Assembly: GCF_000025685.1 (NCBI RefSeq) | Contig: NC_013966.1 | Location: 60,001 to 92,000 of the forward strand | From: Haloferax volcanii DS2 | Lineage (GTDB): Archaea; Halobacteriota; Halobacteria; Halobacteriales; Haloferacaceae | Direction of reading: 5' to 3' | Length of the DNA stretch: 32,000 nucleotides | Shown: positions 1 to 18,957 of the stretch, in pieces | How the letters are laid out: each line of letters starts with the position of its first letter | Position numbering within the stretch: the stretch's first letter is position 1 | Made by a program: the position numbers and the translations under genes | The notes under the pieces: model-generated | What the model saw: the letters and a program-made list of their open reading frames with translations, nothing else | What the model was told of the DNA's origin: nothing | Database searches by the model: none

Positions 1-1230
1 CCCGTTCTGTCCGCTGTCGGCGGAAGGCTCGTAATCGCCATTCACGTTCAACGCCCCGCGATTCAAGCGCACGTTTACGGGTGCGCCTCCGCCCGACGAC
101 TTTTGCGCCGAGCGGAGATACTTCAGGCCAATATTCTTCGCCGCGTTGTAGTCTGCGTGGGGCGAGTATCCACACTTCAGGCACTCGAATACGTTCTGCC
201 CGTCCGAGGTTGGACGGTTGTTCTCGTGGGTGAACCCGCACTTGGAACACCGCTGGGAGGTGTAGGCGGGACTCACTTGTTCGACCGAGATGCCGACCAC
301 TTCGGCCTTGTACTCGACATACTTGAACAGGCGTCGGAACGCCCACGCGTGGAACTTTTTGGCGTTGGGCATCCGCTCACGAATCCCCGTCAGGTTCTCG
401 AACGCGATCACGTCGCAGCCATACTCGACGGCTTCCGCAACGAGTTCCTTCGAGACAGTGTGTAAGAAGTGGTCGTACCGACCCGTCTCGGTGCGTCCAA
501 CCGACTGGATGGTTTCGTGGGCGGCCCGCGTGCCACGCTGGTGGAGTGACCCGCGCCGCTTCTCGAACTCGCGGTGCCAGTGATTCAGCTCCGACCCGTT
601 CCAGAATGTCCCTGTGGAGGTGACGGCGATGTTTTCGATGCCGAGGTCAACGCCGAGGACTGTGCTGTGCTCGTCGTTGCCGTCGTCGGTAGTCTCGAAC
701 TCCACGTCCGCCTTTGTTCGGACGTGAAGGTAGAACTCGCCGTCGCGGTAGTGCAGTTCTGCGCCCGTCACTTCGTAGTCGTCGTTGTATAGATACTCCG
801 AGTGTGGTGTCTCGCGGTTCTCGTCGGGGAGGACGTATTCGGCGGTGATTCGTCCTTCGACGGTCGAAAGCGTGGCGTGGTCGTCGTTGAACGTCGCACA
901 CCGCTTGTCGTAGACGAGCGTCGGGGCGGTGAAGTGCGGTTTTCCCGCGTAGTCACCGTGCTTCCACCGAGCGACGACGCTCTGTACGGCATCGGCGGCC
1001 TTGTTGCGGGCGTTCTGGACGAGATTCGCTTGAAGCCTCGTTTCGGCCCGCACGTCGTCGTAGGTTTCGCGTTGAAGTTCGGCTTTGCTCGTAGTCTTGT
1101 ACTCGCCTTGCCATGCGTGGTCGACGACGTAGTTGGCGGCCCACAGGAACTCGGAAATGGTTTCGCGGAGGAGGTCGGCGTCGCTGTCGGCCACGTCGAG
1201 TTTGACGGGGACGGTGCGACGTACCTCCAT
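1..1230 (-). CDS. tnpB: IS200/IS605-family (IS1341-type) TnpB-like RNA-guided endonuclease; C-terminus runs off the left window edge
   Basis: My translation of the minus strand from the ATG at 1230..1228 ([30 protein letters not shown]...) stays open for all 410 codons down to position 1. It is absent from the ORF track only because no stop lies in the window. RuvC-like contexts: [10 protein letters not shown] (rc of ~640-680), IAFENLTGI (rc of ~385-420), [10 protein letters not shown] (rc of ~125-160). A zinc ribbon CSKCG...CLKCG lies before the last motif. Confidence 0.85.
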
Positions 1231-1256
1231 CCGTGGTTCAGATGTAGTGCCATGTC

Positions 1257-1262
1257 TTTATA
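1257..1262 (-). promoter_or_regulatory. TATA-box-like element for tnpB (leaderless geometry)
   Basis: The minus strand reads TATAAA followed by 26 nt and then the tnpB ATG at 1230. This spacing fits archaeal promoters of leaderless mRNAs. Confidence 0.35.
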
Positions 1263-1403
1263 TTAGCCATGATTCGGTGGGAGTCGGTAACCCATCGAGC
1301 GTGGGTGGTACAGTATCGTGTCGGTTTCCTCTCCACACAATCGCTCGCTTCGCTTGCCCCGTGAGGGCGAAAGCTCCACCTTGCATCACGCTGAACGGCA
1401 TCG

Positions 1404-1709
1404 TCACGGGTTCGAGTCCGGTGGGCCACTCTCTTGATCATCGCGTGCTGCGACCGCGGCTTCGAGCTCTTCGAGGCGTTCCTCGTGGTCGTCGAGGCGG
1501 GCCTCCTGTTCGAGATCGATGCTGAGAAGCGCCGGCAGTAGCGGGTTCTGATGGTTCAACAGCCCGCTCGCGTCGGCGTGTTCGCGGGCGTACTCGAACA
1601 GCTGGTCAAATCGTGGCTGGTCGCGACGCCGCAGTGCCCGGCGGAACTCTGCCCACCGCTCTTCGATGGCCCGGAGCGCATCCCGGTACGTCGGGTTTGT
1701 GCGCCCCAT
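1404..1709 (-). CDS. small Arg/Glu-rich, probably helical hypothetical protein, coupled to the upstream RecA-like gene
   Basis: ORF track 1404..1742. I prefer the internal ATG at 1709 (MGRTNPTYRDALRAIEERW...) because it lies 2 nt after the TAG stop (1714..1712) of the upstream gene. No recognisable catalytic motif. Confidence 0.5.
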   Translation of the reverse strand: MGRTNPTYRDALRAIEERWAEFRRALRRRDQPRFDQLFEYAREHADASGLLNHQNPLLPALLSIDLEQEARLDDHEERLEELEAAVAARDDQESGPPDSNP

Positions 1710-1711
1710 CG

Positions 1712-2656
1712 CTATCGGCCTCCTGTCCCGGTCGCGGTCCACGCATCGAGCAAGGGGTCCGCAGTGGCCGCCACCGTCTCACCGTCAGCTGTGACACCCG
1801 TTCCGACACCCTCCGGAGTCGGCGTCGACGGCGTCGGAGTTGTCGGTTCCACGCCGACCTGCGTGGCGCGTGCCGCGAGCAGCTGCCGCCAGTACGCGAG
1901 CGTCGTCTGGTAGTACGCGCCGTCGTCGACGGGATAGACGAGCGTCTCGAAGTCCTCGCCGACGACCCGTGGGCCCATCCGCGTCTGTTCACACTCCAGG
2001 TGGTGGTCGGCGACCGTCGCGACTGGCTCGGTGAATTCGTTTCGTTCGTTTCGCGTAACGAGCACCGGGATGTCGTACCCCTCGGTGTAGGTCGCTAACC
2101 GGGCAAGGGTTCGAGCCTGGAGGGTTTTCGCGTGAGTCTCGCCAAGGGTATCGTCGGCGCGGTACTGGGCATCGACGGTCGGCGCGACGATGAGGGCGGG
2201 CGTATGGGACGACGTATCCTCGTCATGACTTGGTTCCCCTCGACCGGTCGTCCCGGCGTCGGTGGTGGACATCTGGATTACCTTATTTACCGCTGACGGG
2301 AGATCACAGACGGCGCCGTAGTGCTGGTAGGCGGTAAAACCGCGTGCCACGTGGATTCGGTTGAGCAACCGTTGACTGGGCGCGATCTGGGAGAGTGTCG
2401 TCGTCGTCGCGTGTCCATTTGCGTCGACCCAGAAGGTGGGCCCGTCGTGCAGGAGGAGATGGTCGAGCACGAGCGACTGCAGGATCGGGACGCCGCGGTC
2501 CCCCTCGACGTCGAGCAGCGTGATGCCGTCGTCGAGCTGCGGCAACAACATCTCGTCCGTAGCCGGATCGGCCTGGTCAGCGAGGGACCGATTGCGGTCA
2601 GCGCCCCGTGTCGGCTGGTCCACCGCCAATCGGTTCGATGTTGAGTGTTCTCCCAT
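1712..2656 (-). CDS. RecA/RadB-fold-like protein with degenerate Walker A; Thr/Pro-rich C-terminal tail
   Basis: 314-aa ORF. FWVDANGHATTTTLSQIAPSQRLLNRIHVARGF and ALIVAPTVDAQYRADD...YDIPVLVTRNE resemble the RecA/RadB core strands (xxYIDTE..., xxVVDS...R, xxVxxTNQ). The expected GxxxxGKT position reads VEGDRGVPIL, so there is no P-loop lysine. Confidence 0.6.
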   Translation of the reverse strand: MGEHSTSNRLAVDQPTRGADRNRSLADQADPATDEMLLPQLDDGITLLDVEGDRGVPILQSLVLDHLLLHDGPTFWVDANGHATTTTLSQIAPSQRLLNRIHVARGFTAYQHYGAVCDLPSAVNKVIQMSTTDAGTTGRGEPSHDEDTSSHTPALIVAPTVDAQYRADDTLGETHAKTLQARTLARLATYTEGYDIPVLVTRNERNEFTEPVATVADHHLECEQTRMGPRVVGEDFETLVYPVDDGAYYQTTLAYWRQLLAARATQVGVEPTTPTPSTPTPEGVGTGVTADGETVAATADPLLDAWTATGTGGR

Positions 2657-2772
2657 ACTTGACTAGTTGTCTACGTTCCCGATAAGCCGCGGCGTGGCGC
2701 TTCCGCGTTTCAGGGAAGGGCTGAAAGGTATGTAGAACCGGACTCAGGCAACAGATTTCTGCCATCGTTCGA

Positions 2773-2799
2773 CCGTTTCCGAGAACGTTTCCAGAGAGG
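2773..2799. repeat. composite motif CCGTTTCCG-N6-TTTCCAGAGA (copy 1 of 2; twin at 6418-6440)
   Basis: ccgtttccgagaacgtttccagagagg. It shares a 9-mer and a 10-mer in the same order with 6418-6440 (ccgtttccggaatttccagagat); only the spacer differs (6 vs 3 nt). Confidence 0.5.
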
Positions 2800-2820
2800 A
2801 AGGCAGACAGTATCGTCGGA

Positions 2821-2861
2821 TTAACCAACAGACCGGGGATTCCAACTCGATTGTTGGTTAA
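2821..2861. repeat. perfect palindrome TTAACCAACA-N21-TGTTGGTTAA (copy 1 of 2)
   Basis: Arms at 2821-2830 and 2852-2861 with a 21-nt spacer gaccggggattccaactcgat. The arms and spacer length are identical to those at 4461-4501. Confidence 0.9.
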
Positions 2862-2929
2862 GACTCCCTGAACGTAGGGTGATCTCGCCCTCACGTAATT
2901 CTGTTGACGGCCCCGCATATCCCCCGAGT

Positions 2930-3529
2930 CTACGATCTGATGTGATCGACGATTGTTCTCAGCGCGGTTACATCGTCGTTATTGTACTGTTTGAGTCGAT
3001 CCCAGTCTGGTTCTTCGCCGTCGAGGAGATATCGCGTGTACTTGCTCCCGACCACAAACCCGTCGACGGTCGGGTCTTGATATTCAAAGCCGAGTGCGCT
3101 CGCTACGACGTCCAATTTATGCCGATTGAAGGGCCCAAAGAGTTCCTGTTGGGCAGTAATCCCGAGGTCGTGTGCTCGCTCCAGATGGTCGATCCCCTCA
3201 GTAATGCCGTGTTCGTCGAATCTGCGACTGAGACACTGTTCGTCGAAGTAGTTCCCTCCGTAGTAGATGATCGGCTCGGAGCCATGATCATCAAGGTACT
3301 CAGACAGCTCCTGAAGAAGTGCTGACTCGTCGTCCGGCTCGAAGAATTGTCGGTACGCATCGTTCTGGTAGCTGTAGGTGCCGACCAGCCAGATCCGATC
3401 CTGCTGAAGATCCGTTTCTATGTCCAAGAGGAGAGGCTCCGTATCGTGAAGGTCGTCGAAGGCGGACTTGTTTAGAATCACGACCTCATCGTTTTCGAAA
3501 GCCTGTCGATGAGCAATCCACCGGTCCAC
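2930..3529 (-). CDS. RNase H-fold DEDD(Y)-type 3'-5' exonuclease-like protein (YprB/RNase_H_2-like)
   Basis: 199-aa ORF with a GTG start at 3529. Exo I LLLDIETD, Exo II-like GGNYFDEQCL, Exo III-like YNNDDVTAL. The start lies 3 nt downstream of the stop of the preceding gene (TGA 3535..3533). Confidence 0.8.
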   Translation of the reverse strand: MDRWIAHRQAFENDEVVILNKSAFDDLHDTEPLLLDIETDLQQDRIWLVGTYSYQNDAYRQFFEPDDESALLQELSEYLDDHGSEPIIYYGGNYFDEQCLSRRFDEHGITEGIDHLERAHDLGITAQQELFGPFNRHKLDVVASALGFEYQDPTVDGFVVGSKYTRYLLDGEEPDWDRLKQYNNDDVTALRTIVDHIRS

Positions 3530-3532
3530 GTG

Positions 3533-4375
3533 TCATGAAGAGGCTCCAGGGAGGGCTTCGAGTTCGGCACGCCGTTCTTCGGTAATTTCATCTGGGTTAG
3601 TGATCCCTAACTCACTGAACTGTTCTACTCGGTTTCTCCCGACCTGGACGAGATCAGTCAGGCGACTGCCTAGCAGATGGCGAGTGTCGTAGAACTCGTA
3701 TTCGATTGACTCGTTCGAGGCGTCGATGGTGATGAGTGCGTATCTTCCTGGGTCGTCTACTCCGTCGTGGGATGCGATGTTGATCACCGTGCCGTACTCG
3801 AGGGTTTCAGCTCTACCTCCGAATTGATGGCAATGACCGCAGACGGTAGCTGGGGGCTGGATGTCGTCTATAAAGCTCCTGACGGCCTTCGACCCGATAT
3901 GTTGTTGCCCGAATCGCTTCCCGATATCGAGAATGCCGAAGGGAGGAGTGTGTGTGACAAGAATCGGAGTTCTGTCTTCACAAGCGGTGCGGTGTTCGGA
4001 AAGGTGCCGTTGGACGTCGTCCTCGGTATAGGTGATGAGACCAGGTCCCTGGGTTGATCCTTCCTGGCCGATGAACACGAGATCCTCGTAGATGTATGGT
4101 GTCCTGTGGAGGTCGGTGGTAAATTCCGCATCGAACTGCGGGCCGGTTGACGGGGGGAAGTCGTCGTTTCCTCGGACATAGAGCGATTGTTGGTGCTTCG
4201 TGAGGCGAGCAAGTTCTGCAAGATGATCTGTGTCAGTATCGGCGTTTTTGAAACGTGAGAGGTCGTCGCCGGCATATAGTAGTAAATCTGGAGTTGGTTC
4301 TACAGTTTCGAGAATGGTGTAGAGATCGTCAATAGGTTGAGAGCGCCAGTCAGATACGGCGAGTATGTGGGTCAT
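3533..4375 (-). CDS. calcineurin-like metallophosphoesterase with C-terminal helix-hairpin-helix-like tail
   Basis: 280-aa ORF. MPE motif series: ILAVSDWRS (I), LLYAGDDLS (II), YVRGNDDF (III), ILVTHTPPFG (IV), VCGHCHQFG (V). The C-terminus DLVQVGRNRVEQFSELGITNPDEI looks HhH-like. Confidence 0.85.
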   Translation of the reverse strand: MTHILAVSDWRSQPIDDLYTILETVEPTPDLLLYAGDDLSRFKNADTDTDHLAELARLTKHQQSLYVRGNDDFPPSTGPQFDAEFTTDLHRTPYIYEDLVFIGQEGSTQGPGLITYTEDDVQRHLSEHRTACEDRTPILVTHTPPFGILDIGKRFGQQHIGSKAVRSFIDDIQPPATVCGHCHQFGGRAETLEYGTVINIASHDGVDDPGRYALITIDASNESIEYEFYDTRHLLGSRLTDLVQVGRNRVEQFSELGITNPDEITEERRAELEALPGASS

Positions 4376-4460
4376 TTTGTATGAGCGTAGTTAGTGTGGC
4401 CTCTTCTATCGTTTGTTTAGGTGTACCGTTTGTCATTAGGAGTTTTTCCGCCCGTTGTCG

Positions 4461-4501
4461 TTAACCAACAAATCAGGCTCATCGGTCAATCTGTTGGTTA
4501 A
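4461..4501. repeat. perfect palindrome TTAACCAACA-N21-TGTTGGTTAA (copy 2 of 2)
   Basis: Arms at 4461-4470 and 4492-4501 with a 21-nt spacer aatcaggctcatcggtcaatc. It lies in the divergent intergenic region between the phosphoesterase operon (start 4375, minus) and the SRAP gene (start 4556, plus). Confidence 0.9.
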
Positions 4502-4555
4502 TGGTGAGATTCCTGTGCGACCACGTTGAAGATGCCTCCCTCCGAACTCCTCGGT

Positions 4556-5242
4556 ATGTGTGGCCGGAACTCGCTCTTCATCGACCAAGCAGACCTTGAG
4601 GCCCGCTTCGAAGCCGAGGTCGTCGCGGACGGCGGGTACACCCCCCGATACAACATCGCGCCTGGCGACGACCTCCACATCATCACGAACGAGGCTTCCG
4701 ACGAGATCGACGCCTACCACTGGGGGCTGATTCCGTTCTGGGCGGATGAACCTGAGGAAGGCATCATCAATGCTCGCTCCGAGACTGCTGACGAGAAACG
4801 CGTCTTCGAGCGGGCGTGGGAATCACGTCCCTGCCTCGTCCCCTCGTCAGGGTTCTACGAATGGAAATCGCCGAACGGCGGGTCGAAGCAGCCCTACCGG
4901 ATTTACCGGGAGGACGACCCCGCATTCGCTATGGCCGGGCTCTGGGACGTCTGGGAGGGCGACGACGAGACGATCTCGTGCGTCACGATTCTCACGACGG
5001 AGCCGAACGACCTGATGAACTCAATCCACGACCGGATGCCGGTCGTCCTCCCGAAGGACGCTGAGTCCGACTGGCTCGCCGCAGACCCGGACACCCGCAA
5101 GGAACTGTGCCAGCCGTACCCGAAGGACGATCTGGACGCCTACGAGATTTCGACGCGGGTCAACAACCCCGGCAACGACGATCACCAGGTCATCGAGCCA
5201 CTGGACCACGAGCAATCGGGCCTCGGCGAGTTCAGTTCCTGA
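4556..5242 (+). CDS. SOS-response-associated peptidase (SRAP, YedK/HMCES family) abasic-site-processing protein
   Basis: The track ORF is 4526..5242. I place the start at ATG 4556 because the family hallmark is an N-terminal Met-Cys (MCGRNSLF...; Cys2 is the nucleophile). Also GFYEWK and HDRMPVVLP. Confidence 0.9.
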   Translation: MCGRNSLFIDQADLEARFEAEVVADGGYTPRYNIAPGDDLHIITNEASDEIDAYHWGLIPFWADEPEEGIINARSETADEKRVFERAWESRPCLVPSSGFYEWKSPNGGSKQPYRIYREDDPAFAMAGLWDVWEGDDETISCVTILTTEPNDLMNSIHDRMPVVLPKDAESDWLAADPDTRKELCQPYPKDDLDAYEISTRVNNPGNDDHQVIEPLDHEQSGLGEFSS

Positions 5243-5260
5243 TGGCTGACGGGGTCACCG

Positions 5261-6289
5261 TTACTGCATCGGCGACGCCGCCGCTGAATCGACGAGCGAG
5301 TACTCTCGGTCCCGACTCGTCCCTTCCGCCTCGAGGAGGTTGTACTGCTCCATTTTCGAGAGGTACGTGCGGATAGTCCGCTTCGTCCGCGGATCATCGA
5401 CGTCCTCGGTATAGCGCTCGTGAATCTCGCTCGGCCCGACTGGGCCGTGCTCGCGAACGATATCGTAGACGACCCGCTGATGGGGGGTAAGTGAATCGAG
5501 GCTCTTCTGCTTAATCTGGGCCCGAGCATCCTCGGCGGCGTCCAGGAGGATGTCGTCGGTGATGCGCTCGTGATTCTCGCGATCGGCCTTGCCGGCGGCC
5601 GTTCGGAGGATACCGATTGCGAGGCGGGCGTCGCCGGCGGCCGCGTCGGCGACCCGATAGAGCTGGTCGTCGGTGATGATGTCCTCGTCGAGTCCCCACT
5701 TCGCCCGCGCACTCAGGATGTCGTACAGTTGCTCGTCGTGGTACTTGTCCATCCGTACGTGCTCGCTGGAGCGTAGCCGACTCACGAGGCGATCATCGAC
5801 GCGGCCGAACAGCTCCTCTTCCTTGTTCGCGATGCAGATGATCGCGAACTGCGGGAGGCTGTGGAGGTCGTAGATGACGCTGGGGTCCTCCAGTTGGTCG
5901 ACTTCGTCGAGGATGACGACCGTTCGCGGACCGTCGTGTTGCTGAAGGCGGTCGACGAGTTCGTCGTGCGGCGTCGACTGCCGGTGGATGTCGATGGTCG
6001 CGCCGAGGTCGTCGAGGATCTGGTAGAGTGTCCGAAATCGGGTGTAGTTACGCCAGCAGTTGACGTAGGTGGCCTCGACGTCGAGGACCTCTTCGCGGAG
6101 CCGTTCGGTGACGAACTTCGAGATGCAGGTCTTGCCAGCGCCGCTGGGTCCGGTGACAATAGCGGTATCGGCGGGTTCACCGTTCGTGATGGGCTCGAGA
6201 ACGCTAGAGAGGTGGTTGACTTCGGCGTCGCGATGCTCAACTTCCCGAGGAACGAACCCGGCGCGGAGAACGCGAGCATCGCGAATCAT
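5261..6289 (-). CDS. cdc6: Orc1/Cdc6 family replication initiator
   Basis: 342 aa. Walker A GPSGAGKT, Walker B VVILDEVDQL, and a C-terminal winged-helix region (LTPHQRVVYDIV...TIRTYLSKMEQYNLLE). ATG at 6289..6287. Confidence 0.95.
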   Translation of the reverse strand: MIRDARVLRAGFVPREVEHRDAEVNHLSSVLEPITNGEPADTAIVTGPSGAGKTCISKFVTERLREEVLDVEATYVNCWRNYTRFRTLYQILDDLGATIDIHRQSTPHDELVDRLQQHDGPRTVVILDEVDQLEDPSVIYDLHSLPQFAIICIANKEEELFGRVDDRLVSRLRSSEHVRMDKYHDEQLYDILSARAKWGLDEDIITDDQLYRVADAAAGDARLAIGILRTAAGKADRENHERITDDILLDAAEDARAQIKQKSLDSLTPHQRVVYDIVREHGPVGPSEIHERYTEDVDDPRTKRTIRTYLSKMEQYNLLEAEGTSRDREYSLVDSAAASPMQ

Positions 6290-6339
6290 CTATATCTGGT
6301 AGACTGATTTTCAGGCTAGTAGTAAAAACGTGACCGGGT

Positions 6340-6440
6340 CGCTTCCGGAAAGCAATTTCAATGGAGAGAGGACTCGATTGTCTACTCGCTGTATAGCGGT
6401 TTGTTTGTGGAAACATCCCGTTTCCGGAATTTCCAGAGAT
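6340..6440. other. candidate origin or control region with ORB-like repeats upstream of orc1/cdc6
   Basis: TTCCGGAA occurs at 6343-6350 and 6422-6429. Inverted repeat GGAAAC-ATCCC-GTTTCC at 6409-6425. TGTGGAAAC resembles the archaeal mini-ORB core. Short A-rich run at 6316-6330. Composite motif at 6418-6440. Confidence 0.3.
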
Positions 6441-6828: not shown

Positions 6829-6854
6829 ATCCTCGTGTGTTGGATTTCGATAAT

Positions 6855-9800
6855 ATGGTTGCTACTTCGTCTGAGGATATTGAAGACCTAATCGACCGAT
6901 ACCGTGACAAACACGACTGGGAGCGAGACAAAGCTCACGTTCAGAATACTTCTAAGGTAATCCGTCAATTGGTACAGGCCATCGTCGAGACGGGATCTGT
7001 CGACGAGTACGCCATGCGCACAGTGTACAACCTGTGCCAGAACGATGACGCTCTCCAACCAGAGAACAAGAAGGAACGAATTGACAATCTCGACATCGAT
7101 TCCACCGCGAAGTCCGAGATTAAGGAGCGGATTGATGAAGGGACAGGTATCGTTGGGAAAGGAACATACTCGGTGCCAATTGAAGGCCATGAGGAAGAGG
7201 CATTTAACCTCCTTTCAACCGCGATCAGGTCCGATAATCGTGATGAGATTGACCCCGCGATAGAAGAATTCGCCAACCTCGAAATTGAAGGGATACAAAA
7301 CGGAATTATCTCCCCAATCCTCTACTTCCTCCATCCAACAAAATACCCGATCAGTAACCACCGCTCACGAACGGGTATGCAGAAGTTCTTTGGCTATGAG
7401 ATGTCCGGTCGACTCACTTCTTATCTAACTGAGGTCGAGAAATTCCATGAAGTTCGTGCGGACTATCCGTTCAAAAACGACTTTCGACATCTGGATAGCT
7501 TCTTCAATTGGGTTGAGGAACAGGAATCGGTCTTAGGTGAGCAATCTACGAAGCCAGTCGCAGAGATATCTGATGATGCCAATCTCTATTGGGTGAATCA
7601 ACATAACCCACCAGAAATCGAGGAAGAGTATCTCAGAGCCAAGACTGACGGACTTTGGCATCACAATTTAGATAAGTTATCCATCGGTGACGTGGTCTTC
7701 CATAACTTCGATAACGAACTGATAGGCATTTCGACCGTTATCGAGAATGCCGAGACGTACACATCCCGAGATGAAGAATACTATCGGGTTGAGGTTGATC
7801 TACGCTCGTTTGGAGAACCAGTACCTGTTGACGACGACTTGAAAAAGAGGCTCGGACAGGATCAATATCGGACTGAAAAGTACTACTCCATCGATAAGAA
7901 CGGTAACCTCAATGAAGCCTATCTGGCGAACCTATCCCGATCTGCAGCGGAGTTTCTCCTGAGTCAGGTAGACTCAATTGAGGAGTCTGAAACCCCTGTG
8001 GAAACTTCAGGATCTCCAAGAAGGATCTGGCAAATCACCCCCGCGAGAGGCGGCGAATATTGGGGTACGTGGATGCAACATGGAATTGCGTCCATCGGAT
8101 ACGGACTCGATCATAAGGTGACGAACGATGTAGCGGACATCGACGATGTCGATGAGCTGTCTGATGGAGAACTCGTCGAAATCGCCGCGGAGGCCGGCGA
8201 CAACCATGGTCGTGGTATGGCATACCGCTTCCAGTACGAAATCGACGAGGGCGATGTGATAATCGCCAAACAGGGACGTACCTCAGAATCCGATATTATC
8301 TATGGGATCGGTATCGTTACGGCTGCCCACCGTGAGAAGAGCTATCCTGAAATCAACCATTCAGACGTCGTCAGCGTTGACTGGAAGGTGACTTTTGGGG
8401 AAAGTGGGGTGGATATTGATGTTGGTAGTGATTCCGATTCGATCAAGACGTACACACTAGATACCCTTGATCCAGAGTACTACCGCGACCTCACGTCAGA
8501 ACTCGCCGACAAAGGAGATGTAGATCGCGACGAACTCCTTGCCCTCGTCTTTGATGAGCTATCTCAGGATGATGAGGGTGAAACGACGGACGAAGGCACG
8601 AACCATTACTGGATTTCAGCGAATCCTTCGATTTGGAAAGTCGAAAGCATCGAAGACGGTGATGAGGTTTTCTATACGGCGTATAATCGAAAGGGGAACA
8701 AACGTCGAATCTTTGGAGCGTTTGAGGAGGCGTCTCCTGGTGACAAGGTGCTGTTCTATGAGTCCCAGCCCGTCCAAGCCATCGTGGCAGAAGGAACAAT
8801 TCGGGAAGGGCTCCACAAAGATGAACACGAAGAGTACGATGAACCGGTCGACGGAATCACTATTGAGTACAGCCGAGCTATGGAAACTATATCGTGGGAT
8901 CAGCTTACCGCAGTCCCGGATCTGGAGGATGCCTCTCCAATCAGAAACCGAGCACAAGGAAGCCTCTTCCCCCTTACCGAAGACGAGTTCGAAACCATCC
9001 TCGCACTAGAGGATCCGATTGAAGACGGTGTCTCACAGGACGCCATTAATCAACTCAAAACAAAACTCACTTCTCCGGAGGTCGATGTCTCGATTCCCAA
9101 CAGTCTCTACTTCGATGATGCTGACCGACTTCGACGCGAGATCGAAGCTTCACTCCGGTCTGGAAAGCACCTCATCTTTACCGGACCACCGGGCACCGGG
9201 AAGACAAAACTAGCAAAGGCAATCTGTGAATCCGCTACGACCCACGAGCAAGTCGACGATTACAGGTTCACGACTGCGACCTCTGAATGGACTGCGTTTG
9301 ATACGATTGGTGGATATGTTCCTTCTACGGGCGACGGTGGACAGGAACTCCTGTTCGAACCCCGGCTTTTCCTCAAGTGTTTCCGGCAAGACCGAGTCGT
9401 CAACGAGTGGCTCATCATCGACGAAATCAATCGATCAGACATCGACAAAGCCTTCGGACAGCTCTTTTCCGTTCTGTCTGGCGATTCAACCGAACTCCCA
9501 TACGAACGCGATCGAACCGTCGAACTTCGCTCACTTTCCAATTCAACAACTGACGAAGAGCTCGCCGAAATTATTGGGAACCCAGACGCCTTCCCGGTTA
9601 CCCCTTCGTGGCGGCTAATTGCTACAATGAACACGTACGACAAAACCTCGCTGTACGAAATGTCGTACGCATTTATGCGCCGTTTCAACTTCGTCCACGT
9701 CGGCGTTCCACCGCTCACCACCGATGACGGGGTCCGAACCTCACTCCTCGATCCAGACGGGACTGACAATTACGCGACTGCGTGGCTCGCCGATGATGAG

Positions 9801-10151
9801 TCTCTCCGACCAATTCTCGCAGACGTGTACCCTGTCGTAGCAGTTCTGTGGCAACGTATCAATGAACATCGCGTCATCGGTCCCTCTATCGTGTACGATA
9901 TCATCCGGTATCTCGGCTCATACGATGACGCCGGCGGATCACGGAAAGACGCGCTCACGTCCGCTGTCGTTTCCCTCGTCTACCCGCAATTGGAGGGTAT
10001 GAGACCAGAACAGCAGAAACAATTGATTCGGTCACTCACCGATCAGAACGTCGCTACCGAAAACGGACCTGTAACACTTGATCTTGACAAGTCGTTACTC
10101 CAGCAAAAAGCGGCTGACTTCTTCGGTATCACGTTCGACGATGACGCATAG
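6855..10151 (+). CDS. mcrB: McrB-family AAA+ GTPase with a long N-terminal extension: helical domain plus three PUA/EVE-like modules
   Basis: Walker A GPPGTGKT (9183-9206). Walker B/McrB box LIIDEINRSDIDKAFGQLF (9411-). McrB signature ATMNTYDKTSLYEMSYAFMRRF (9627-). Three modules of YW/IW...GD-hydrophobic-strand type at ~7581-7826, ~8022-8396 and ~8601-8996. Confidence 0.9.
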   Translation: MVATSSEDIEDLIDRYRDKHDWERDKAHVQNTSKVIRQLVQAIVETGSVDEYAMRTVYNLCQNDDALQPENKKERIDNLDIDSTAKSEIKERIDEGTGIVGKGTYSVPIEGHEEEAFNLLSTAIRSDNRDEIDPAIEEFANLEIEGIQNGIISPILYFLHPTKYPISNHRSRTGMQKFFGYEMSGRLTSYLTEVEKFHEVRADYPFKNDFRHLDSFFNWVEEQESVLGEQSTKPVAEISDDANLYWVNQHNPPEIEEEYLRAKTDGLWHHNLDKLSIGDVVFHNFDNELIGISTVIENAETYTSRDEEYYRVEVDLRSFGEPVPVDDDLKKRLGQDQYRTEKYYSIDKNGNLNEAYLANLSRSAAEFLLSQVDSIEESETPVETSGSPRRIWQITPARGGEYWGTWMQHGIASIGYGLDHKVTNDVADIDDVDELSDGELVEIAAEAGDNHGRGMAYRFQYEIDEGDVIIAKQGRTSESDIIYGIGIVTAAHREKSYPEINHSDVVSVDWKVTFGESGVDIDVGSDSDSIKTYTLDTLDPEYYRDLTSELADKGDVDRDELLALVFDELSQDDEGETTDEGTNHYWISANPSIWKVESIEDGDEVFYTAYNRKGNKRRIFGAFEEASPGDKVLFYESQPVQAIVAEGTIREGLHKDEHEEYDEPVDGITIEYSRAMETISWDQLTAVPDLEDASPIRNRAQGSLFPLTEDEFETILALEDPIEDGVSQDAINQLKTKLTSPEVDVSIPNSLYFDDADRLRREIEASLRSGKHLIFTGPPGTGKTKLAKAICESATTHEQVDDYRFTTATSEWTAFDTIGGYVPSTGDGGQELLFEPRLFLKCFRQDRVVNEWLIIDEINRSDIDKAFGQLFSVLSGDSTELPYERDRTVELRSLSNSTTDEELAEIIGNPDAFPVTPSWRLIATMNTYDKTSLYEMSYAFMRRFNFVHVGVPPLTTDDGVRTSLLDPDGTDNYATAWLADDESLRPILADVYPVVAVLWQRINEHRVIGPSIVYDIIRYLGSYDDAGGSRKDALTSAVVSLVYPQLEGMRPEQQKQLIRSLTDQNVATENGPVTLDLDKSLLQQKAADFFGITFDDDA

Positions 10152-11505
10152 TCTCGCCGTAGAGGAACTCGTTAACGCCACCAGCGAAGAGCTGGGTACG
10201 TACTTGCGAAGCGGCGCGCTGAACACAAACGCACTCACGCGCTCACTCGATTACGAAGGCCTCGATATTGAGGACTGGGAGCGTATCAAACGCATCCATT
10301 TCTGTCTCGCTGACGACGTCCACGACTTCATCAGCGCCCTTTCTGACCGCGTTCGACGCATTAAGACCGAACATCAACGTGAAAACATCCATACGCAAGG
10401 GGAAGTCCGTGGGTCGATCAACTGGAGCGCTACACTCCGGACCCGCTCCGAATCCGGCTACGCAGATCGTAGCCGCTTCGTCTGCAACACCCCCTATACA
10501 GAATACGATATTGCAGAAAACCGCGTCTTGAAACGTCTCCTGTGGCAAATCCACCGCACAGTTACAGACGAACTCCAGAGCGTTGAGTACGATTGGCGGC
10601 AGGAATTCTGGACCGATGACCAGCTCGCCAGCTTCGACCGGCTGTACAAACAGAATGTCCACCTGAGCCGCATCAAAGAGGGCCCGGCAATCTCCGTTTC
10701 CGGACAGGACATGACCACTGCTCGCCAGTCACGCCTCCCGCTCTACACCGAAGCCTACGACCTCTACGATATGTTCCAACGCCTTCAAGCCGACACGCTC
10801 GACGCAGATATCACGGAACTCCTGGCAGACACACTCGTTGTTCCGACAGACACACCAACTCTCTTCGAACTCTTCTGTTGCTTCCGCCTTATCCGAACAC
10901 TCACCCGATTCACTCCTGGTTTCGTCCTCAAACCAATCGACGGAGAAAGTAACGCACTCGCGCACCTCGAATCAGACGACACTCGCATCGAAATCCACCA
11001 TGACAGTACCGGTAGTCTCAGTTTCCACGAACCACTCGATACAACACACCGTCCGGTACACGCACAGTATGCACGATATCACGACGCTCTCATCGACTAC
11101 AGTGACACGCTCGAAGCACTCACAGGTGACCCAAGCGATCCAGTCCTATACAATGGCCGTCCCGACATCATCATCGAAATCTACGACACCACATCCGACG
11201 AAAGACTCGACTCCGTACTCCTCGGTGAAATAAAACACTCCGATGCGACACAGACCTTCAAACAAGGTCTCGAAGAGCTTCTCACTTACCGACGTTTCGC
11301 CAGTAAGGACAATTACCTCATCGACAAACCGGACATCACACTCACCAGCCTTCTGATCACCAACGGCGTTACTACATCTGGAACCAGCGACGAAGTTATC
11401 CACCTCAACGGAACAGACCTCATCGACTCCCCCGCAACGCACTCCAAACATTTGGACTGGATTCACTCACTTTCTGGATTGCCCGCGACTCCAAGCCGGG
11501 CATAG
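10141..11505 (+). CDS. mcrC: McrC-like PD-(D/E)xK nuclease partner
   Basis: ATG 10141 (MTHSLAVEEL...) overlaps the McrB-like stop (10149-10151) by 11 nt. C-terminal nuclease motif RPDIIIEIY...LLGEIKHSD (about 11158-11238). ENRVLKRLLWQI in the N-terminal half. Confidence 0.8.
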   Translation: MTHSLAVEELVNATSEELGTYLRSGALNTNALTRSLDYEGLDIEDWERIKRIHFCLADDVHDFISALSDRVRRIKTEHQRENIHTQGEVRGSINWSATLRTRSESGYADRSRFVCNTPYTEYDIAENRVLKRLLWQIHRTVTDELQSVEYDWRQEFWTDDQLASFDRLYKQNVHLSRIKEGPAISVSGQDMTTARQSRLPLYTEAYDLYDMFQRLQADTLDADITELLADTLVVPTDTPTLFELFCCFRLIRTLTRFTPGFVLKPIDGESNALAHLESDDTRIEIHHDSTGSLSFHEPLDTTHRPVHAQYARYHDALIDYSDTLEALTGDPSDPVLYNGRPDIIIEIYDTTSDERLDSVLLGEIKHSDATQTFKQGLEELLTYRRFASKDNYLIDKPDITLTSLLITNGVTTSGTSDEVIHLNGTDLIDSPATHSKHLDWIHSLSGLPATPSRA

Positions 11506-11947: not shown

Positions 11948-13384
11948 CTAGTTTAGTAGCGATCAAAGCCGAACTCACCTCGTTCAACCTGCTCACGTAA
12001 CCGATCTCTGTGTGGATTTGGATTTCGTGACGCCCACAGCAACAGCTCGTCCAAATCCGGCAGTTCGTAGCCCAGCTCAACCATGAGATACAGTTGGATC
12101 AGATGACCGTGGCGTTCCACGGCGAGCGAACAGCGACGCCGAGGGAGCCGCGACGCCGACGAGTCGGCGTCTGCGGCGGCTTCGCCCTCTCGCTGTCTTG
12201 CCTCAAGTGACCGCAACTCATCCACGATTACACGACTCATCATCAACGAAATTGCGGCCATGATGATCAGCGCCTCGATGATGTAGCCGTCGGTCGTCTT
12301 GATCTCGTCCAAGCCGAACCGCGACTTCAACTCCTTGAACAGCAGTTCGACCTCCCAGCGCGCCCGATAGAGCTGCGCGATATCGGGCGCGCTGTAGCTT
12401 TCTCTCGCCAGATTCGTCAGATACAGATGATACTCGTCGGTCTTCTCGTTACGTAGTCCGACCAGTCGAAACGTCCGGGTCGCGCTGGCGCCCGACCCTC
12501 GTTTGCGCTCGAACGAGAGCGTGATGCGGACGTCGATCTCCTGTCGCTGCAGGTCGTCGAGGACGGCCTGCAGCGACTCTCCTTCCAGCGGAATGCTGTT
12601 GCCTCGCCACGTTCGCAGTTCTTCGACAATCTCGAAGTTCGCGTCGTCTTTGACACGAGAGACGAACCAACCGTCGTTCTTGTCGATGCGGTCGAACAGC
12701 CAGAAGTCGTAAAAGCCCAAATCAAGGAGAATGAGGGCGTCAGCTACCCACTCGCCGGTGGGTAGCTGACTCCGTTCATGAGTCGTCCCATCGGTTGTCC
12801 GGAATCGTGTCGGGAGCCCAGTCGAGAGAGATTCGGTGAGGTGAAGTTTCAGTTCGGCTTGATGGTCGCCGGTTGCTGTGTAGATATCAGCGGCGTCCTG
12901 GTACAGCGAAACGATGGTTGCGTCAGCAATGAGGACGTCTCGAAAGCGTTCGAGACGGCCGTTCAAATCTTCTCGTCCGGTATCGAGATTCTCGATTGCG
13001 TCATCGAGAATCTCTCGAAGGAGTGCAACGAATCCTGGTTCGAACCAGTCGTGGAACGATGCGTAGGAGAGTTCGTCACAGTCAGCCATCTCGACGTAGC
13101 GTTCGAGAAATGCTTGGAGAGAGCGGTCTGAGCCAGCAGCGAAGCCAAACGAGAGTGTGTAGAACAGCGCAACGATGTCGAATTTCCGCTCTCGTTGGAC
13201 GAGATTCGTTGCGCGAGCGCGCTCGCGCAACTCATCAGAGGGAAACGCTCTTTGAATCCGGTCAACTATGACCGAATCCGGTGGGCTGTAGGTCATACTT
13301 CCCACCGGGTTTCTCAATCAGGTAGTTGCGACGATATCAAATCAACAGACAGCAACTGGATTCTTTGTTAAACTAGAACGGATG
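11940..13384 (-). mobile_element. IS4-family (ISH8-like) insertion sequence, copy A
   Basis: Perfect 11-bp terminal inverted repeat GTTCTAGTTTA (11945-11955 / complement 13369-13379). It extends outward imperfectly to CATGC / CATCC. Boundaries are uncertain by a few nt, and I found no flanking direct repeat. Confidence 0.8.
11953..13296 (-). CDS. IS4-family DDE transposase (ISH8 group)
   Basis: The track ORF starts at a TTG (13317). ATG 13296 (MTYSPPDSVIVDRIQRAF...) aligns with the N-terminus of the paralogue at 19038. Conserved DVLIADATIVSL, LDLGFYDF, YRARWEVELLFKELK. Confidence 0.9.
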   Translation of the reverse strand: MTYSPPDSVIVDRIQRAFPSDELRERARATNLVQRERKFDIVALFYTLSFGFAAGSDRSLQAFLERYVEMADCDELSYASFHDWFEPGFVALLREILDDAIENLDTGREDLNGRLERFRDVLIADATIVSLYQDAADIYTATGDHQAELKLHLTESLSTGLPTRFRTTDGTTHERSQLPTGEWVADALILLDLGFYDFWLFDRIDKNDGWFVSRVKDDANFEIVEELRTWRGNSIPLEGESLQAVLDDLQRQEIDVRITLSFERKRGSGASATRTFRLVGLRNEKTDEYHLYLTNLARESYSAPDIAQLYRARWEVELLFKELKSRFGLDEIKTTDGYIIEALIIMAAISLMMSRVIVDELRSLEARQREGEAAADADSSASRLPRRRCSLAVERHGHLIQLYLMVELGYELPDLDELLLWASRNPNPHRDRLREQVERGEFGFDRY

Positions 13385-18700: not shown

Positions 18701-18957
18701 AACGTAATATCATCGTTCAGGGGGCTGGTCAGTGGTCCCTCGTCAGATTTTCTATATGCAATGACAGTGAATAGTTCGTTGATGGGGCTCCCGTGTCGTT
18801 TCAAGTGTCGCTTCAGATCGCTAAACGCGGGGCTATCCCCAGATGCTTCGAGTTCGATGTATCGAATGATGCCGTCACCATTCTCATCAACTAAGTGTGC
18901 TTCGTACCAATCGTTCCCTCCTTGGTTGCGCTTTATCCCACTAGGGATCTCGACCAT
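15691..18957 (-). CDS. large gamma-class N6-adenine DNA methyltransferase (Eco57I / PglX / DrmMI-like)
   Basis: 1088 aa. AFYTPKPI, motif I VLDPAVGSGAFI (about 17741-17772), motif IV DIVIGNPPY (NPPY at 17146-17157). N-terminal helical region NRVLFLLFIEEKKWL. Its TGA (15693..15691) overlaps the helicase ATG (15701) by 11 nt. Confidence 0.9.
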   Translation of the reverse strand: MVEIPSGIKRNQGGNDWYEAHLVDENGDGIIRYIELEASGDSPAFSDLKRHLKRHGSPINELFTVIAYRKSDEGPLTSPLNDDITFLHIEEQFSSEDVEVTFDLNYFTVKRFGVEPAYLDYLDDLSVDSGQGRASLEGDVEEVFSIREITRSFYQDFGEIFREDLQDAIHGLKDPEENLNAYTRTVVNRVLFLLFIEEKKWLDGDVDYVENKYEEVAEDPDMHVYEDFFEPLFFEALSEEGTTESDTLGRIPFLNGGLFERKDIEKNVEIDEVFFDKLLSPEKNSSGNPEGLLRRYKISLRESNPSEQELVVDPEFIGRIFEMFMQKDDRADLGAFYTPKPITSYMTKNALKQHLLGQTDITNEEAVSLVTDHTTPESLSDSQIEAIDEALRSATVLDPAVGSGAFIIAMLEELVAVSEALDSSRGDDRSRFQLKKEFIADTLYGVDIDAAGIEMCKFRVWLHLMQDLKHVSHEEFLEANQKFALPNLGFKFFVGNSLVGEYDPTRVDVSSYQETLTGGLNSTLNEIHKTRKEFQTAHGKNKDRLSDQLEKLTTELETQLAVKEKGGWMTEAAEAADSTFTWTTNIPEVILDGGFDIVIGNPPYEGQEGAEYKGELGDFYSEKEGFRYYSKTDLFQFFVHRGYELANSDGVFTYIMSDTFFTQINKTDVRSTLLDELDELTRVNPDAFDASVETAIFSLSKSGNKSNEVRLNDSYDVDIKSYPQLLTPIDYDESYSVSIGEVSYETKRSNLGEHTIYQLNRELYRKSINNSFFTPTELNTEIFGEFIAPFNSVYDRWQNEIADTSNLEKSLPEVESLIQETSPGEILPFGLLTVGGQGISMRTNKDFIHVLEGTKKAKRIEEEDSYSRSKLYKTVKEEKVIHDASQLSEEEKLHGVANDANRTFVKVTRESKSRDLYFCPTDEFVDWSRDNVDKLKDQGVPRNDQYYLNQGIATKQGGGVRNLECRMIEPSVFTNTNLVFFSIDEEKADLKYMMAILNSTFSGYIAKNFLNRIGLSTRDVRRLPIKIPDDDEKEKIVGLVEDAIQIQKKRPDVLDDPDMDAIEEIDRELDEAVAELYGVDLERLENGI

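What the first reader, a model, noticed from the sequence alone, without database searches (positions are those of the whole stretch)
2930..4375. Coupled metallophosphoesterase(HhH) + DEDD exonuclease operon: candidate uncharacterised DNA-targeting cassette
The two minus-strand genes are separated by only 3 nt (TGA 3535..3533, GTG 3529). The first has the five-motif calcineurin-like phosphoesterase series, but His is replaced in motif I (SDWRS instead of DxH) and motif III (GNDD instead of GNHD/E). It ends in an HhH-like DNA-binding tail. The second is an RNase H-fold DEDD exonuclease. There is no SMC/Rad50-like ATPase partner, so this is not a Mre11-Rad50/SbcCD pair, and I do not recognise the pairing as a named defence system. 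The neighbours are McrBC-like, MTase/PLD-SNF2, SRAP, RecA-like, Orc1 and IS elements, which is typical defence or mobile-element context.
Basis: partly seen in the sequence, partly recalled or inferred. Interest (0 to 1): 0.8.

Follow-up and report, generated by a model that had tools for sequence, protein, structure and literature searches.

The report
One broken nuclease gene, not two
The supposed two-gene operon is one 481-codon gene for an uncharacterised three-domain DNA nuclease on the Haloferax volcanii plasmid pHV4, cut in two by a single stop-codon mutation, while intact copies move between salt-loving archaea on plasmids.

Summary
But both ORFs lie in the same frame, separated by one TGA (3535..3533). 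The window is H. volcanii DS2 plasmid pHV4, positions 60001-92000. In 14 intact copies checked from other haloarchaea, the same 1446 nt form one 481-aa ORF with TGG (Trp281) at that codon. So this is one gene with a nonsense mutation private to H. volcanii, not a coupled operon.

The intact protein has three parts:
- an atypical metallophosphoesterase (motif I D-x-R, motif III G-N-D-D, both conserved across the family);
- an (HhH)2 DNA-binding domain, which the stop cuts;
- a MrfB/PolB-like DEDDy 3'-5' exonuclease.

Intact copies are under purifying selection (dN/dS about 0.1). The family is broad, apparently mostly archaeal, and uncharacterised.

The gene has lower GC than its flanks and sits in a variable cargo slot of a conserved plasmid replication module (PolB-hyp-hyp314-[slot]-SRAP-Cdc6). 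A GmrSD restriction enzyme fills that slot in other plasmids. There is no conserved partner gene, neighbours are often defence or mobile-element genes, and copies are often decayed.

It is most likely an accessory DNA-end-processing nuclease, in defence or plasmid competition. A repair role is a serious rival. Function is untested, so interest is moderate.

The parts
2930..4375 (-). One interrupted gene of 481 codons plus terminal TAG: metallophosphoesterase, (HhH)2 and DEDDy exonuclease. It probably corresponds to pHV4 locus tags HVO_A0070 and HVO_A0069; that is inferred from numbering and not verified.
   Evidence: Read-through translation. Single 481-aa orthologues at 81-99% identity. GC 53.7% against 62-65% in the flanking genes.
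3533..3535 (-). In-frame TGA replacing the Trp281 codon (TGG); G->A at window position 3533
   Evidence: Alignment with H. hubeiense pSTJ002. TGG at codon 281 in 14 intact copies. Trp281 is at least 90% conserved in the haloarchaeal alignment. The 280-aa and 199-aa products were seen on 138 and 117 contigs, with H. volcanii the only organism named for them.
3701..4375 (-). Atypical metallophosphoesterase domain (residues 1-225). Motifs: SDWR 4343-4354, AGDD 4262-4273, GNDD 4160-4171, THTPP 3941-3955, GHCH 3827-3838.
   Evidence: Pfam PF00149 above its cut-off. PADLOC PDC-S10 1.4e-19. Foldseek hits to aq_1956 (5e-10), TT1561, GpdQ, MPPED2 and Mre11. Motif census.
3497..3694 (-). (HhH)2 DNA-binding domain (residues 228-293), split by the TGA before its last helix
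   Evidence: Family profile against PDB: L32e N-terminal domain, Rad51 N-terminal domain, NusA C-terminal domain and Hel308, 5e-5 to 2.5e-3. AF2 helices at 238-241, 247-255, 266-273 and 280-295.
2933..3478 (-). DEDDy 3'-5' exonuclease domain (residues 300-481). Exo I DIE 3416-3424, Exo II GNYFD 3242-3256, Exo III YNNDD 2972-2986.
   Evidence: Pfam RNase_H_2 1.3e-22. Profile against PDB: MrfB 8UN9 7.4e-9 and archaeal PolB exonuclease domains. Foldseek hits to PolB and T7 polymerase exonuclease domains. Catalytic residues are near-invariant in 149 representatives.
2930..3529 (-). Downstream ORF (GTG start, 199 aa) created by the nonsense mutation. It holds the last HhH helix and the whole exonuclease domain.
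   Evidence: RefSeq names it as a separate protein, WP_236995450.1.
2821..2861 (.). Palindromic element TTAACCAACA-N21-TGTTGGTTAA, downstream of the gene and upstream of the hyp314 operon
   Evidence: 4 exact arm matches against 0.64 expected. Conserved arms with a variable spacer in all compared plasmids.
4461..4501 (.). Second copy of the same palindromic element, in the divergent promoter region between the gene and SRAP
1712..2656 (-). Conserved backbone gene HVO_A0068 (314 aa, no recognisable domain), forming the left border of the variable slot
   Evidence: Exact protein look-up. More than 90% identical in related plasmids. No Pfam or PADLOC hit.
4526..5242 (+). Conserved backbone gene for SRAP (SOS-response-associated peptidase), forming the right border of the slot. 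The true start is probably about 30 nt downstream of 4526.
   Evidence: Pfam SRAP 2.6e-68. RefSeq homologues are 228 aa.

Best explanation
This is one gene, not two. It encodes a 481-aa, three-domain nuclease that H. volcanii pHV4 carries as a recently broken allele (Trp281 TGG->TGA).

The intact protein is a horizontally mobile accessory gene. It sits in a variable, low-GC cargo slot between HVO_A0068 and the SRAP gene, inside a conserved haloarchaeal plasmid replication module.

Inferred mechanism (not shown):
- The (HhH)2 domain holds the enzyme on duplex DNA without sequence specificity.
- The atypical metallophosphoesterase domain hydrolyses a phosphoester at DNA ends, for example a 3'-phosphate or another blocking group, or it makes a nick. 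Its metal ligands are kept, but Arg replaces the motif I His and Asp replaces the motif III His.
- The DEDDy exonuclease then degrades the strand 3'->5'.

The most likely biological role is degrading or limiting foreign DNA, either as a single-gene defence or in plasmid competition. In H. volcanii the stop cuts the (HhH)2 domain and separates the two catalytic domains, so the locus is probably non-functional or only residually active.
For: Shown:
- Same frame, one stop codon.
- Orthologues are single 481-aa ORFs with TGG at codon 281 in 14 copies.
- The stop is reproducible: the 280-aa and 199-aa products occur on 138 and 117 contigs, with H. volcanii the only organism named for them.
- dN/dS is 0.04-0.18 in the pairs listed, and the means for the three domains are 0.11-0.16. 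The nearest copy (Halorubrum sp. DTA46) differs by only 8 substitutions, so the break is recent.
- Domains are supported by Pfam, the PDB profile search (MrfB 7e-9, (HhH)2 about 5e-5), an AF2 model with pLDDT 89 and Foldseek.
- Family-wide conservation in 149 representatives: D9, R11 (124/135), D37, N70, D71 (141/144), H142, H181, H183 and the DEDDy residues.
- The backbone is more than 90% identical across about 100 plasmids. The slot holds this gene, a GmrSD/DUF262 enzyme (PADLOC HEC-05, 1e-66), unknown genes, or almost nothing.
- Gene GC is 54%, against 62-65% in the backbone.

Association only:
- All 54 family representatives match the PADLOC candidate PDC-S10.
- Distant homologues sit next to an integrase plus SMODS/SLATT, restriction-modification genes, HNH, McrBC-like, SNF2/Mrr_N, HerA-like, TnpB and VapBC genes.
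- No partner gene is conserved.
- About one third of copies that lie within contigs are truncated, frameshifted or interrupted by an insertion. In most of the disrupted loci that still carry it, the adjacent hyp314 gene is full length.
Against: - No experiment exists for any family member.
- Defence association is qualitative. I had no background rate to compare it with.
- Some members lie among housekeeping or repair genes: GyrA/ScpB/PCNA, UvrD plus RmuC, a UDG-like gene and NucS.
- The nearest characterised relative of the exonuclease domain, MrfB, is a repair enzyme.
- The nearest structural relatives of the metallophosphoesterase domain are nucleotide or glycerophospho-diesterases (GpdQ, MPPED2, Rv0805) rather than Mre11. 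Its substrate may therefore not be DNA.
- A single-protein nuclease needs some way to tell self from non-self, and nothing here reveals one.
- PDC-S10 is itself untested.
Confidence: 0.7

Rival explanations
1. DNA repair or replication accessory enzyme rather than defence. The metallophosphoesterase domain removes 3'-blocking groups (3'-phosphate, or lyase or abasic-site products) and the exonuclease trims the end. This would support the plasmid's own PolB/SRAP/Cdc6 replication-repair module.
For: - The gene lies between SRAP and the hyp314-hyp112-polB2 operon.
- It shares the palindromic operator-like element with that operon.
- The exonuclease domain's closest solved relative is the mitomycin-repair exonuclease MrfB.
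- Distant members sit next to UvrD/RmuC, a UDG-like gene, NucS, or GyrA/PCNA.
Against: - The gene is optional. Most plasmids with the same module lack it or carry a GmrSD restriction enzyme in its place.
- Its GC content differs from the module.
- It is often decayed while its neighbours stay intact.
- There is no MrfA-type helicase partner.
Confidence: 0.3
2. One reading: a working two-protein system in H. volcanii. The 280-aa and 199-aa products are made by termination-reinitiation at TGA-CAC-GTG and act together.
For: - The GTG lies 3 nt after the stop.
- RefSeq annotates both products.
- Stand-alone HhH+exonuclease proteins of about 250 aa exist on other haloarchaeal plasmids, so the C-terminal half could be viable alone.
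- From my own knowledge, termination-reinitiation has been described in H. volcanii.
Against: - The split was seen in no other genome. 14 intact copies are fused.
- The cut removes the last helix of the (HhH)2 fold.
- The only GGAG upstream of the GTG is about 15 nt away, too far by my own knowledge of usual Shine-Dalgarno spacing.
- The window copy differs from its nearest relative by only 8 substitutions, which leaves little time for adaptation to a split state.
Confidence: 0.07
3. Leaky pseudogene. Low-level UGA read-through by tRNA-Trp restores the wild-type full-length protein, so a weak function persists.
For: - The mutation is TGG->TGA, so near-cognate Trp insertion would recreate the native sequence.
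- The stop is followed by C.
- From my own knowledge, UGA-C is a weak termination context in other organisms.
Against: No data exist for H. volcanii read-through at this site. This is inference from other organisms.
Confidence: 0.12
4. The metallophosphoesterase domain acts on small nucleotides (cyclic or linear signalling nucleotides, or 2',3'-cyclic phosphates) and not on DNA. The protein would then link nucleotide signalling with nuclease activity.
For: - The best structural and sequence neighbours of the N-terminal domain are GpdQ, Lmo2642, MPPED2 and Rv0805/Icc.
- A phage metallophosphoesterase of about 234 aa is its only phage relative by sequence (23% identity). I did not scan that protein against PADLOC, so its link to PDC-S10 is untested.
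Against: - The domain is fused to two DNA-directed modules.
- The loss of both canonical His residues has no precedent among those diesterases.
- No cyclase or sensor is a conserved neighbour.
Confidence: 0.1
5. The TGA is an assembly or sequencing error in one reference genome.
For: It is a single-base difference from all relatives.
Against: The exact 280-aa and 199-aa products are on record from 138 and 117 contigs, including NCBI assemblies and Logan assemblies of public sequencing runs, with H. volcanii the only organism named for them.
Confidence: 0.02

Closest known systems
MrfB (YprB) of Bacillus subtilis, PF13482 / COG3359 exonuclease (PDB 8UN9)
   Same: The C-terminal domain is homologous (profile E 7.4e-9) and has the same Exo I-III acidic residues. 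MrfB is a proven Mg2+-dependent 3'-5' DNA exonuclease (PMC11194089).
   Different: MrfB is DEDDh, carries a TPR tail and works with the MrfA helicase. This protein is DEDDy (Tyr in 134 of 149 representatives), has no TPR and no helicase partner, and carries N-terminal metallophosphoesterase and (HhH)2 domains.
Exonuclease domain of archaeal family B DNA polymerases
   Same: Same fold and DEDDy motifs (Foldseek about 1e-5; profile hits 3e-4). The gene lies beside a plasmid polB operon.
   Different: No polymerase domain is present. In two plasmids a separate stand-alone RNase_H_2 protein sits where PolB sits in others.
Class III phosphodiesterase-type metallophosphoesterases (GpdQ, MPPED2, Rv0805/Icc) and the uncharacterised aq_1956 / TT1561 (PF14582)
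   Same: These are the closest folds to the N-terminal domain (2yvt 5e-10, 1uf3 6e-8, GpdQ 1e-7, MPPED2 3e-6). Motifs II, IV and V and the motif III Asn are kept.
   Different: Arg replaces the motif I His, and Asp replaces the motif III His. Both changes are conserved family-wide. None of these relatives is fused to an exonuclease.
Mre11-Rad50 / SbcCD
   Same: A metallophosphoesterase-fold nuclease acting on DNA ends is the nearest functional analogy. Mre11 is a Foldseek hit (4nzv, 1.3e-5).
   Different: No conserved SMC/Rad50 ATPase partner. An SMC_N ATPase lies 3 kb away in one locus only. No Mre11 capping domain was identified. The His residues essential in Mre11 are absent.
PADLOC phage-defence candidate PDC-S10
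   Same: The metallophosphoesterase domain of all 54 family representatives matches the model (best 2.2e-21). The window protein matches at 1.4e-19 over 176 of 223 profile positions.
   Different: PDC-S10 is a 223-position model that aligns only with the metallophosphoesterase domain. It is untested as far as the searched literature shows. The match starts after motif I. A stand-alone 234-aa phage metallophosphoesterase, the family's only phage relative by sequence, has canonical DxH and GNHD motifs, but I did not test it against the PDC-S10 model.
GmrSD / DUF262 type IV restriction enzymes
   Same: They occupy exactly the same slot of the same plasmid backbone in other haloarchaea. This suggests a comparable role as cargo.
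   Different: No sequence or fold relationship.

Membership tests
Calcineurin-like metallophosphoesterase superfamily (PF00149) | Profile match above the curated threshold and the metallophosphoesterase fold | tested here: met
   38.8 bits against a cut-off of 21.5. Foldseek hits to aq_1956, TT1561, GpdQ, MPPED2 and Mre11 with probability 1.00.
Calcineurin-like metallophosphoesterase superfamily (PF00149) | Canonical motif I D-x-H and motif III G-N-H-D/E | tested here: not met
   The window has S-D-W-R and G-N-D-D. In 149 representatives, R is found at position 11 in 124 of 135 and D at position 71 in 141 of 144. This is a conserved variant, not decay.
Calcineurin-like metallophosphoesterase superfamily (PF00149) | Remaining metal ligands (motif I Asp, motif II Asp, motif III Asn, motif IV His, motif V GHxH) | tested here: met
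   D9 134, D37 140, N70 144, H142 146, H181 147 and H183 146 of 149 representatives.
DEDD (DnaQ-like) 3'-5' exonucleases, PF13482 RNase_H_2 | Exo I D-x-E, Exo II D, Exo III Y/H-x3-D, and a family profile match | tested here: met
   DIE, GNYFD and YNNDD in the window. These are near-invariant across the family. Pfam 81 bits against a cut-off of 22. MrfB 7.4e-9.
DEDD (DnaQ-like) 3'-5' exonucleases, PF13482 RNase_H_2 | Metal-dependent 3'-5' exonuclease activity | not testable with these tools
   This needs purified intact protein. The window allele is truncated.
(HhH)2 DNA-binding domain | Two helix-hairpin-helix motifs with a connecting helix | tested here: met
   The family profile (residues 228-293) matches L32e-N, Rad51-N, NusA-CTD and Hel308 at 5e-5 to 2.5e-3. 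HHH_5 hits are on record for several homologues. The window sequence alone gives only a weak Cdd1 hit at 0.16.
   Relatives carry one fused ORF. The window has an in-frame TGA where they have TGG.
Mre11-Rad50 / SbcCD | Adjacent SMC-like ATPase partner | tested here: not met
   The neighbours are HVO_A0068 and SRAP. No conserved ATPase appears in 14 other contexts.
MrfAB repair pair | MrfA/YprA DUF1998 helicase encoded next to the exonuclease, and a TPR tail on the exonuclease | tested here: not met
   No helicase is adjacent in the window or in related loci with the same module. No TPR hit.
PADLOC PDC-S10 (defence candidate) | Match to the PDC-S10 model as a stand-alone protein | tested here: inconclusive
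   The domain-level match is strong (1.4e-19; 54 of 54 representatives). But the model is 223 positions long, and this protein has two further domains and a different motif I and motif III.
Anti-virus / anti-plasmid defence gene (functional class) | Protection phenotype, or statistically supported enrichment in defence islands | not tested
   There is only qualitative neighbourhood evidence. No background model and no experiment.

The most novel reading that the evidence does not exclude
The intact metallophosphoesterase(D-x-R / G-N-D-D)-(HhH)2-DEDDy protein is a new single-protein anti-mobile-element nuclease of archaea. It would be related through its N-terminal domain to the untested PADLOC candidate PDC-S10. 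It would attack DNA ends that ordinary exonucleases cannot use, such as 3'-blocked or protein-capped ends of linear haloviruses and plasmids. H. volcanii DS2 would then be a natural knock-out that one base change (TGA->TGG) could repair.
Probability: 0.3. Interest if true: 0.6.

Novelty: new variant of a known kind. Interest (0 to 1): 0.38.

Why it matters
- **Annotation:** it corrects a plausible misreading. RefSeq also lists two separate proteins in H. volcanii, a model archaeon.
- **An untested enzyme family:** the family is broad. phmmer found 162 clusters (50% identity level) at E<=1e-30, and most of the 150 best hits listed match over nearly the full length. Its metallophosphoesterase active site is conserved but non-canonical, and it is joined to a proofreading-type exonuclease. 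No member has been studied.
- **A ready experiment:** H. volcanii carries a natural null allele that one nucleotide change would fix, and viruses (HFTV1, HFPV-1) and transformation assays exist for it (my own knowledge). The defence-versus-repair question is therefore directly testable.
- **Plasmid biology:** the variable slot in a replication module shared at more than 90% identity across many haloarchaeal genera is a useful place to look for further cargo genes. Several are complete unknowns.

Tried and rejected
- **Palindromes as cassette borders:** rejected. The TTAACCAACA-N21-TGTTGGTTAA elements flank the gene, but the same element recurs 2-5 times per 20 kb in intergenic regions of related plasmids, and the left copy is present whatever fills the slot. 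It looks like an operator for a plasmid regulator.
- **Genome scan with the broad 54-sequence alignment:** failed because the alignment was too diverse. I repeated it with the haloarchaeal alignment, which biases the 32 loci towards Halobacteria.
- **AFDB50 fold search:** not available.
- **Profile search of the word-indexed protein database:** added few new or named members.
- **Literature searches:** searches for PDC-S10, for HVO_A0068 to HVO_A0072, for COG2129/COG3359 and for metallophosphoesterase plus RNase H-like plus defence found no functional study.
- **Phage and viral searches:** no two-domain viral homologue. There are only weak single-domain hits.
- **Other readings rejected:** Mre11-Rad50 and MrfAB were considered and rejected for lack of partner genes. 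A sequencing error was rejected on the contig counts. The 'RecA-like' label for HVO_A0068 was not supported.
Full report
**1. What is in the sequence**

The two minus-strand ORFs exist as described. They are 3533..4375 (280 aa) and 2930..3529 (199 aa, GTG start), with TGA at 3535..3533 and three bases (CAC) before the GTG. Pfam finds Metallophos in the first (1.8e-9, above its cut-off) and RNase_H_2 PF13482 in the second (1.3e-22).

Translating 4375..2930 gives 481 codons with one internal stop.

**2. One gene, broken**

The closest full-length database relatives of the 280-aa product (81-95% identical) are single proteins of 479-483 aa carrying both Pfam domains. The same locus on Halobacterium hubeiense plasmid pSTJ002 is 95.8% identical in DNA. 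There it is one 1446-nt CDS, and it reads TGG where the window reads TGA.

Fourteen intact copies from other genera all have TGG at codon 281 and no internal stop. Trp281 is at least 90% conserved in the haloarchaeal alignment.

Exact protein look-ups identify the window as Haloferax volcanii DS2 plasmid pHV4. The 314-aa neighbour is HVO_A0068 and the Orc1 gene is orc12, HVO_A0072. The published orc12 coordinates (66289-65261) place the window at pHV4 60001-92000.

The 280-aa and 199-aa products are on record from 138 and 117 contigs, with H. volcanii the only organism named for them. The stop is therefore real in this lineage and not a one-off error.

The window copy differs from its nearest relative (Halorubrum sp. 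DTA46) by eight substitutions, so the break is recent. Among intact copies dN/dS is about 0.1 in each of the three domains. The intact protein is therefore functional elsewhere.

**3. What the protein is**

An AlphaFold model built from 22 homologues has mean pLDDT 89.

- **N-terminal domain (about residues 1-225).** It has the metallophosphoesterase fold. The nearest structures are aq_1956, TT1561, GpdQ, Lmo2642 and MPPED2, and then Mre11.
- **Middle domain (residues 228-293).** A family profile matches the (HhH)2 domains of haloarchaeal L32e, Rad51/RadA, NusA and Hel308.
- **C-terminal domain (residues 300-481).** It matches the mitomycin-repair exonuclease MrfB (7.4e-9) and archaeal PolB exonuclease domains. 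MrfB is a proven 3'-5' DNA exonuclease (PMC11194089).

The stop codon falls at the start of the last helix of the (HhH)2 domain. It breaks that fold and uncouples the two catalytic domains.

**4. The family**

phmmer of an intact orthologue against 1.84 billion cluster representatives gave 1510 hits, 162 of them at E<=1e-30. Most of the 150 best hits listed match over nearly the whole query, and some carry N-terminal extensions.

In 149 near-full-length representatives:

- The unusual residues are conserved. Motif I is S-D-[WYLC]-R (Arg in 124 of 135, His in only 6). Motif III is G-N-D-[D/C] (Asp71 in 141 of 144).
- All other metal ligands and the DEDDy residues are near-invariant.

Members with taxonomic labels are Halobacteria and one Nanohaloarchaeon. 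A 2.8-kb contig binned as Alphaproteobacteria is probably mis-binned. One distant member lies among archaeal housekeeping genes, including PCNA, Sec61-beta and NAC.

No phage or virus carries the two-domain architecture. I found no paper that describes the fusion.

**5. Where it sits**

Window 1391-6351 is a module shared at more than 90% nucleotide identity by about 100 haloarchaeal plasmids of many genera. The usual order is PolB - hyp(about 101 aa) - hyp314 - [slot] - SRAP - Cdc6.

The slot content varies:

- this gene, in about a dozen PLSDB plasmids;
- a GmrSD/DUF262 type IV restriction enzyme (PADLOC HEC-05, 1e-66; Pfam GmrSD_N and GmrSD_C);
- unknown proteins;
- almost nothing.

The gene's GC is 54%, against 62-65% for the backbone.

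Outside this module, homologues at 37-50% identity sit in unrelated contexts with no conserved partner:

- an integrase plus SMODS/SLATT;
- an NgoPII restriction-modification pair plus HNH;
- a methyltransferase plus a UvrD-PDDEXK protein;
- SNF2 plus Mrr_N;
- McrB-like, HNH and NucS;
- a giant helicase with HNH repeats;
- HNH plus TnpB, and a HerA-like ATPase;
- IS elements, and a single locus with an SMC_N ATPase;
- VapBC pairs;
- UvrD plus RmuC, and a housekeeping block.

**6. Decay**

Besides the H. volcanii nonsense allele, several copies that lie within contigs are disrupted:

- frameshifted (L023);
- interrupted by about 1.4 kb of inserted DNA (L025);
- truncated (L028, L029, L037, L039, L040 and L041, and plasmid hits H49-H51).

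Thirteen loci are intact. Among the disrupted loci that still carry hyp314, it is full length in L023, L028 and L029 but fragmentary in L040; L025, L037, L039 and L041 have no hyp314 match. Frequent loss, horizontal spread, patchiness and the shared slot with GmrSD all fit an accessory, possibly costly, gene.

**7. Function**

Shown: the domain identities, the conserved catalytic residues, purifying selection, the accessory and mobile status, and inactivation in pHV4.

Inferred: (HhH)2 binds duplex DNA. The metallophosphoesterase domain hydrolyses a phosphoester at or near a DNA end. DEDD exonucleases need a free 3'-OH (general enzymology, my own knowledge), so an end-unblocking activity is the most economical reason for the fusion. 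The DEDDy domain then resects 3'->5'.

I favour a defence or plasmid-competition role, at roughly 0.4. The grounds are context, the match of the metallophosphoesterase domain of all 54 representatives to the PADLOC candidate PDC-S10, and the decay pattern.

A repair or replication accessory role, at about 0.3, is the main rival. The grounds are the MrfB homology, the PolB/SRAP neighbourhood, and repair-type or housekeeping contexts for some members.

The nearest relatives of the metallophosphoesterase domain are small-molecule diesterases, so a non-DNA substrate cannot be excluded. The only phage relative found by sequence, a 234-aa Flavobacterium phage phosphoesterase at 23% identity, has canonical DxH and GNHD motifs. 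The D-x-R / G-N-D-D pair was not seen there.

**8. Residual activity in H. volcanii**

This part is speculative. The GTG three bases after the stop could allow reinitiation and yield a free exonuclease. Stand-alone HhH+exonuclease proteins do exist on other haloarchaeal plasmids. UGA followed by C is a weak stop in other organisms (my own knowledge), and Trp insertion there would restore the native protein. Neither idea has been tested.

**9. Verdict**

The 'coupled operon' is an artefact of a nonsense mutation.

The underlying gene family is real, broad, uncharacterised and mechanistically unusual. It is a new variant built from known domain families, not a new kind of system. Interest is moderate. 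The best asset is that a model archaeon carries a natural, one-base-repairable null allele.

Noticed in passing
window 2821-2861 and 4461-4501; also L001, L012-L033 and L048: A palindromic element, TTAACCAAC-N21-23-GTTGGTTAA, has invariant 9-10 bp arms and a freely varying spacer. It recurs 2-5 times per 20 kb in intergenic regions of this haloarchaeal plasmid family, including upstream of the hyp314-PolB operon in every plasmid compared. It is probably the operator of an unidentified plasmid regulator.
   Followed up: partly
window 1-1390: This stretch matches IS200/IS605-type TnpB elements of other haloarchaeal plasmids at up to 93% identity, but has no ORF longer than 161 aa here. It looks like a decayed TnpB element. 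In related plasmids the hyp101 gene and PolB are 3 nt apart, whereas here hyp112 and polB2 (HVO_A0065, which starts at pHV4 59942) are separated.
   Followed up: partly
window 2657-4525 (the slot) compared with L002-L005: The interval between HVO_A0068 and SRAP is a replaceable cargo slot in a backbone that is more than 90% conserved. The alternatives are a GmrSD/DUF262 enzyme, a 321-aa plus 599-aa pair, and a 531-aa protein. The last three have no Pfam or PADLOC hit and are themselves unexplored candidates.
   Followed up: partly
L001 10149-10793 and L002 6145-6792: In the H. hubeiense and H. noricense plasmids, a stand-alone RNase_H_2 exonuclease of about 213 aa sits where the type B DNA polymerase sits in other plasmids with the same module. 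About 20 plasmids carry stand-alone HhH+exonuclease relatives at 25-32% identity.
   Followed up: no
window 6837-11505: A 1104-aa protein with EVE and AAA_5 (McrB-like) domains is followed by an overlapping 475-aa ORF with no recognisable domain. This is a likely McrBC-type modification-dependent restriction pair. The same pair at 94% identity follows Cdc6 in Halorarius halobius.
   Followed up: no
window 13368-18957: A PLD(HKD)-SNF2 helicase (PADLOC 'HKD+Snf2' C3a139, 1e-59) lies next to a 1088-aa Eco57I/type IIG-like methyltransferase. They are flanked by DDE transposases at 11953-13317 and 19038-20336.
   Followed up: no
window 1712-2656, 5261-6289 and 6837-10151 (the last assigned to HVO_A0074 by its product name only): A published transcriptome lists HVO_A0068, HVO_A0072 (orc12) and HVO_A0074 (AAA ATPase) together in a table of genes whose expression changes in opposite directions in two comparisons (PMC12699388). 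This fits co-regulation of the module. The broken gene is not listed there.
   Followed up: no
L013/L014 (Halosimplex aquaticum plasmid) and L020/L026 (Halorientalis marina plasmid): Two plasmids each carry two copies of the whole Cdc6-SRAP-gene-hyp314 module. In Halosimplex, and in the Haloquadratum locus L028, a fragment of hyp314 (residues 1-93) is duplicated next to the gene.
   Followed up: no
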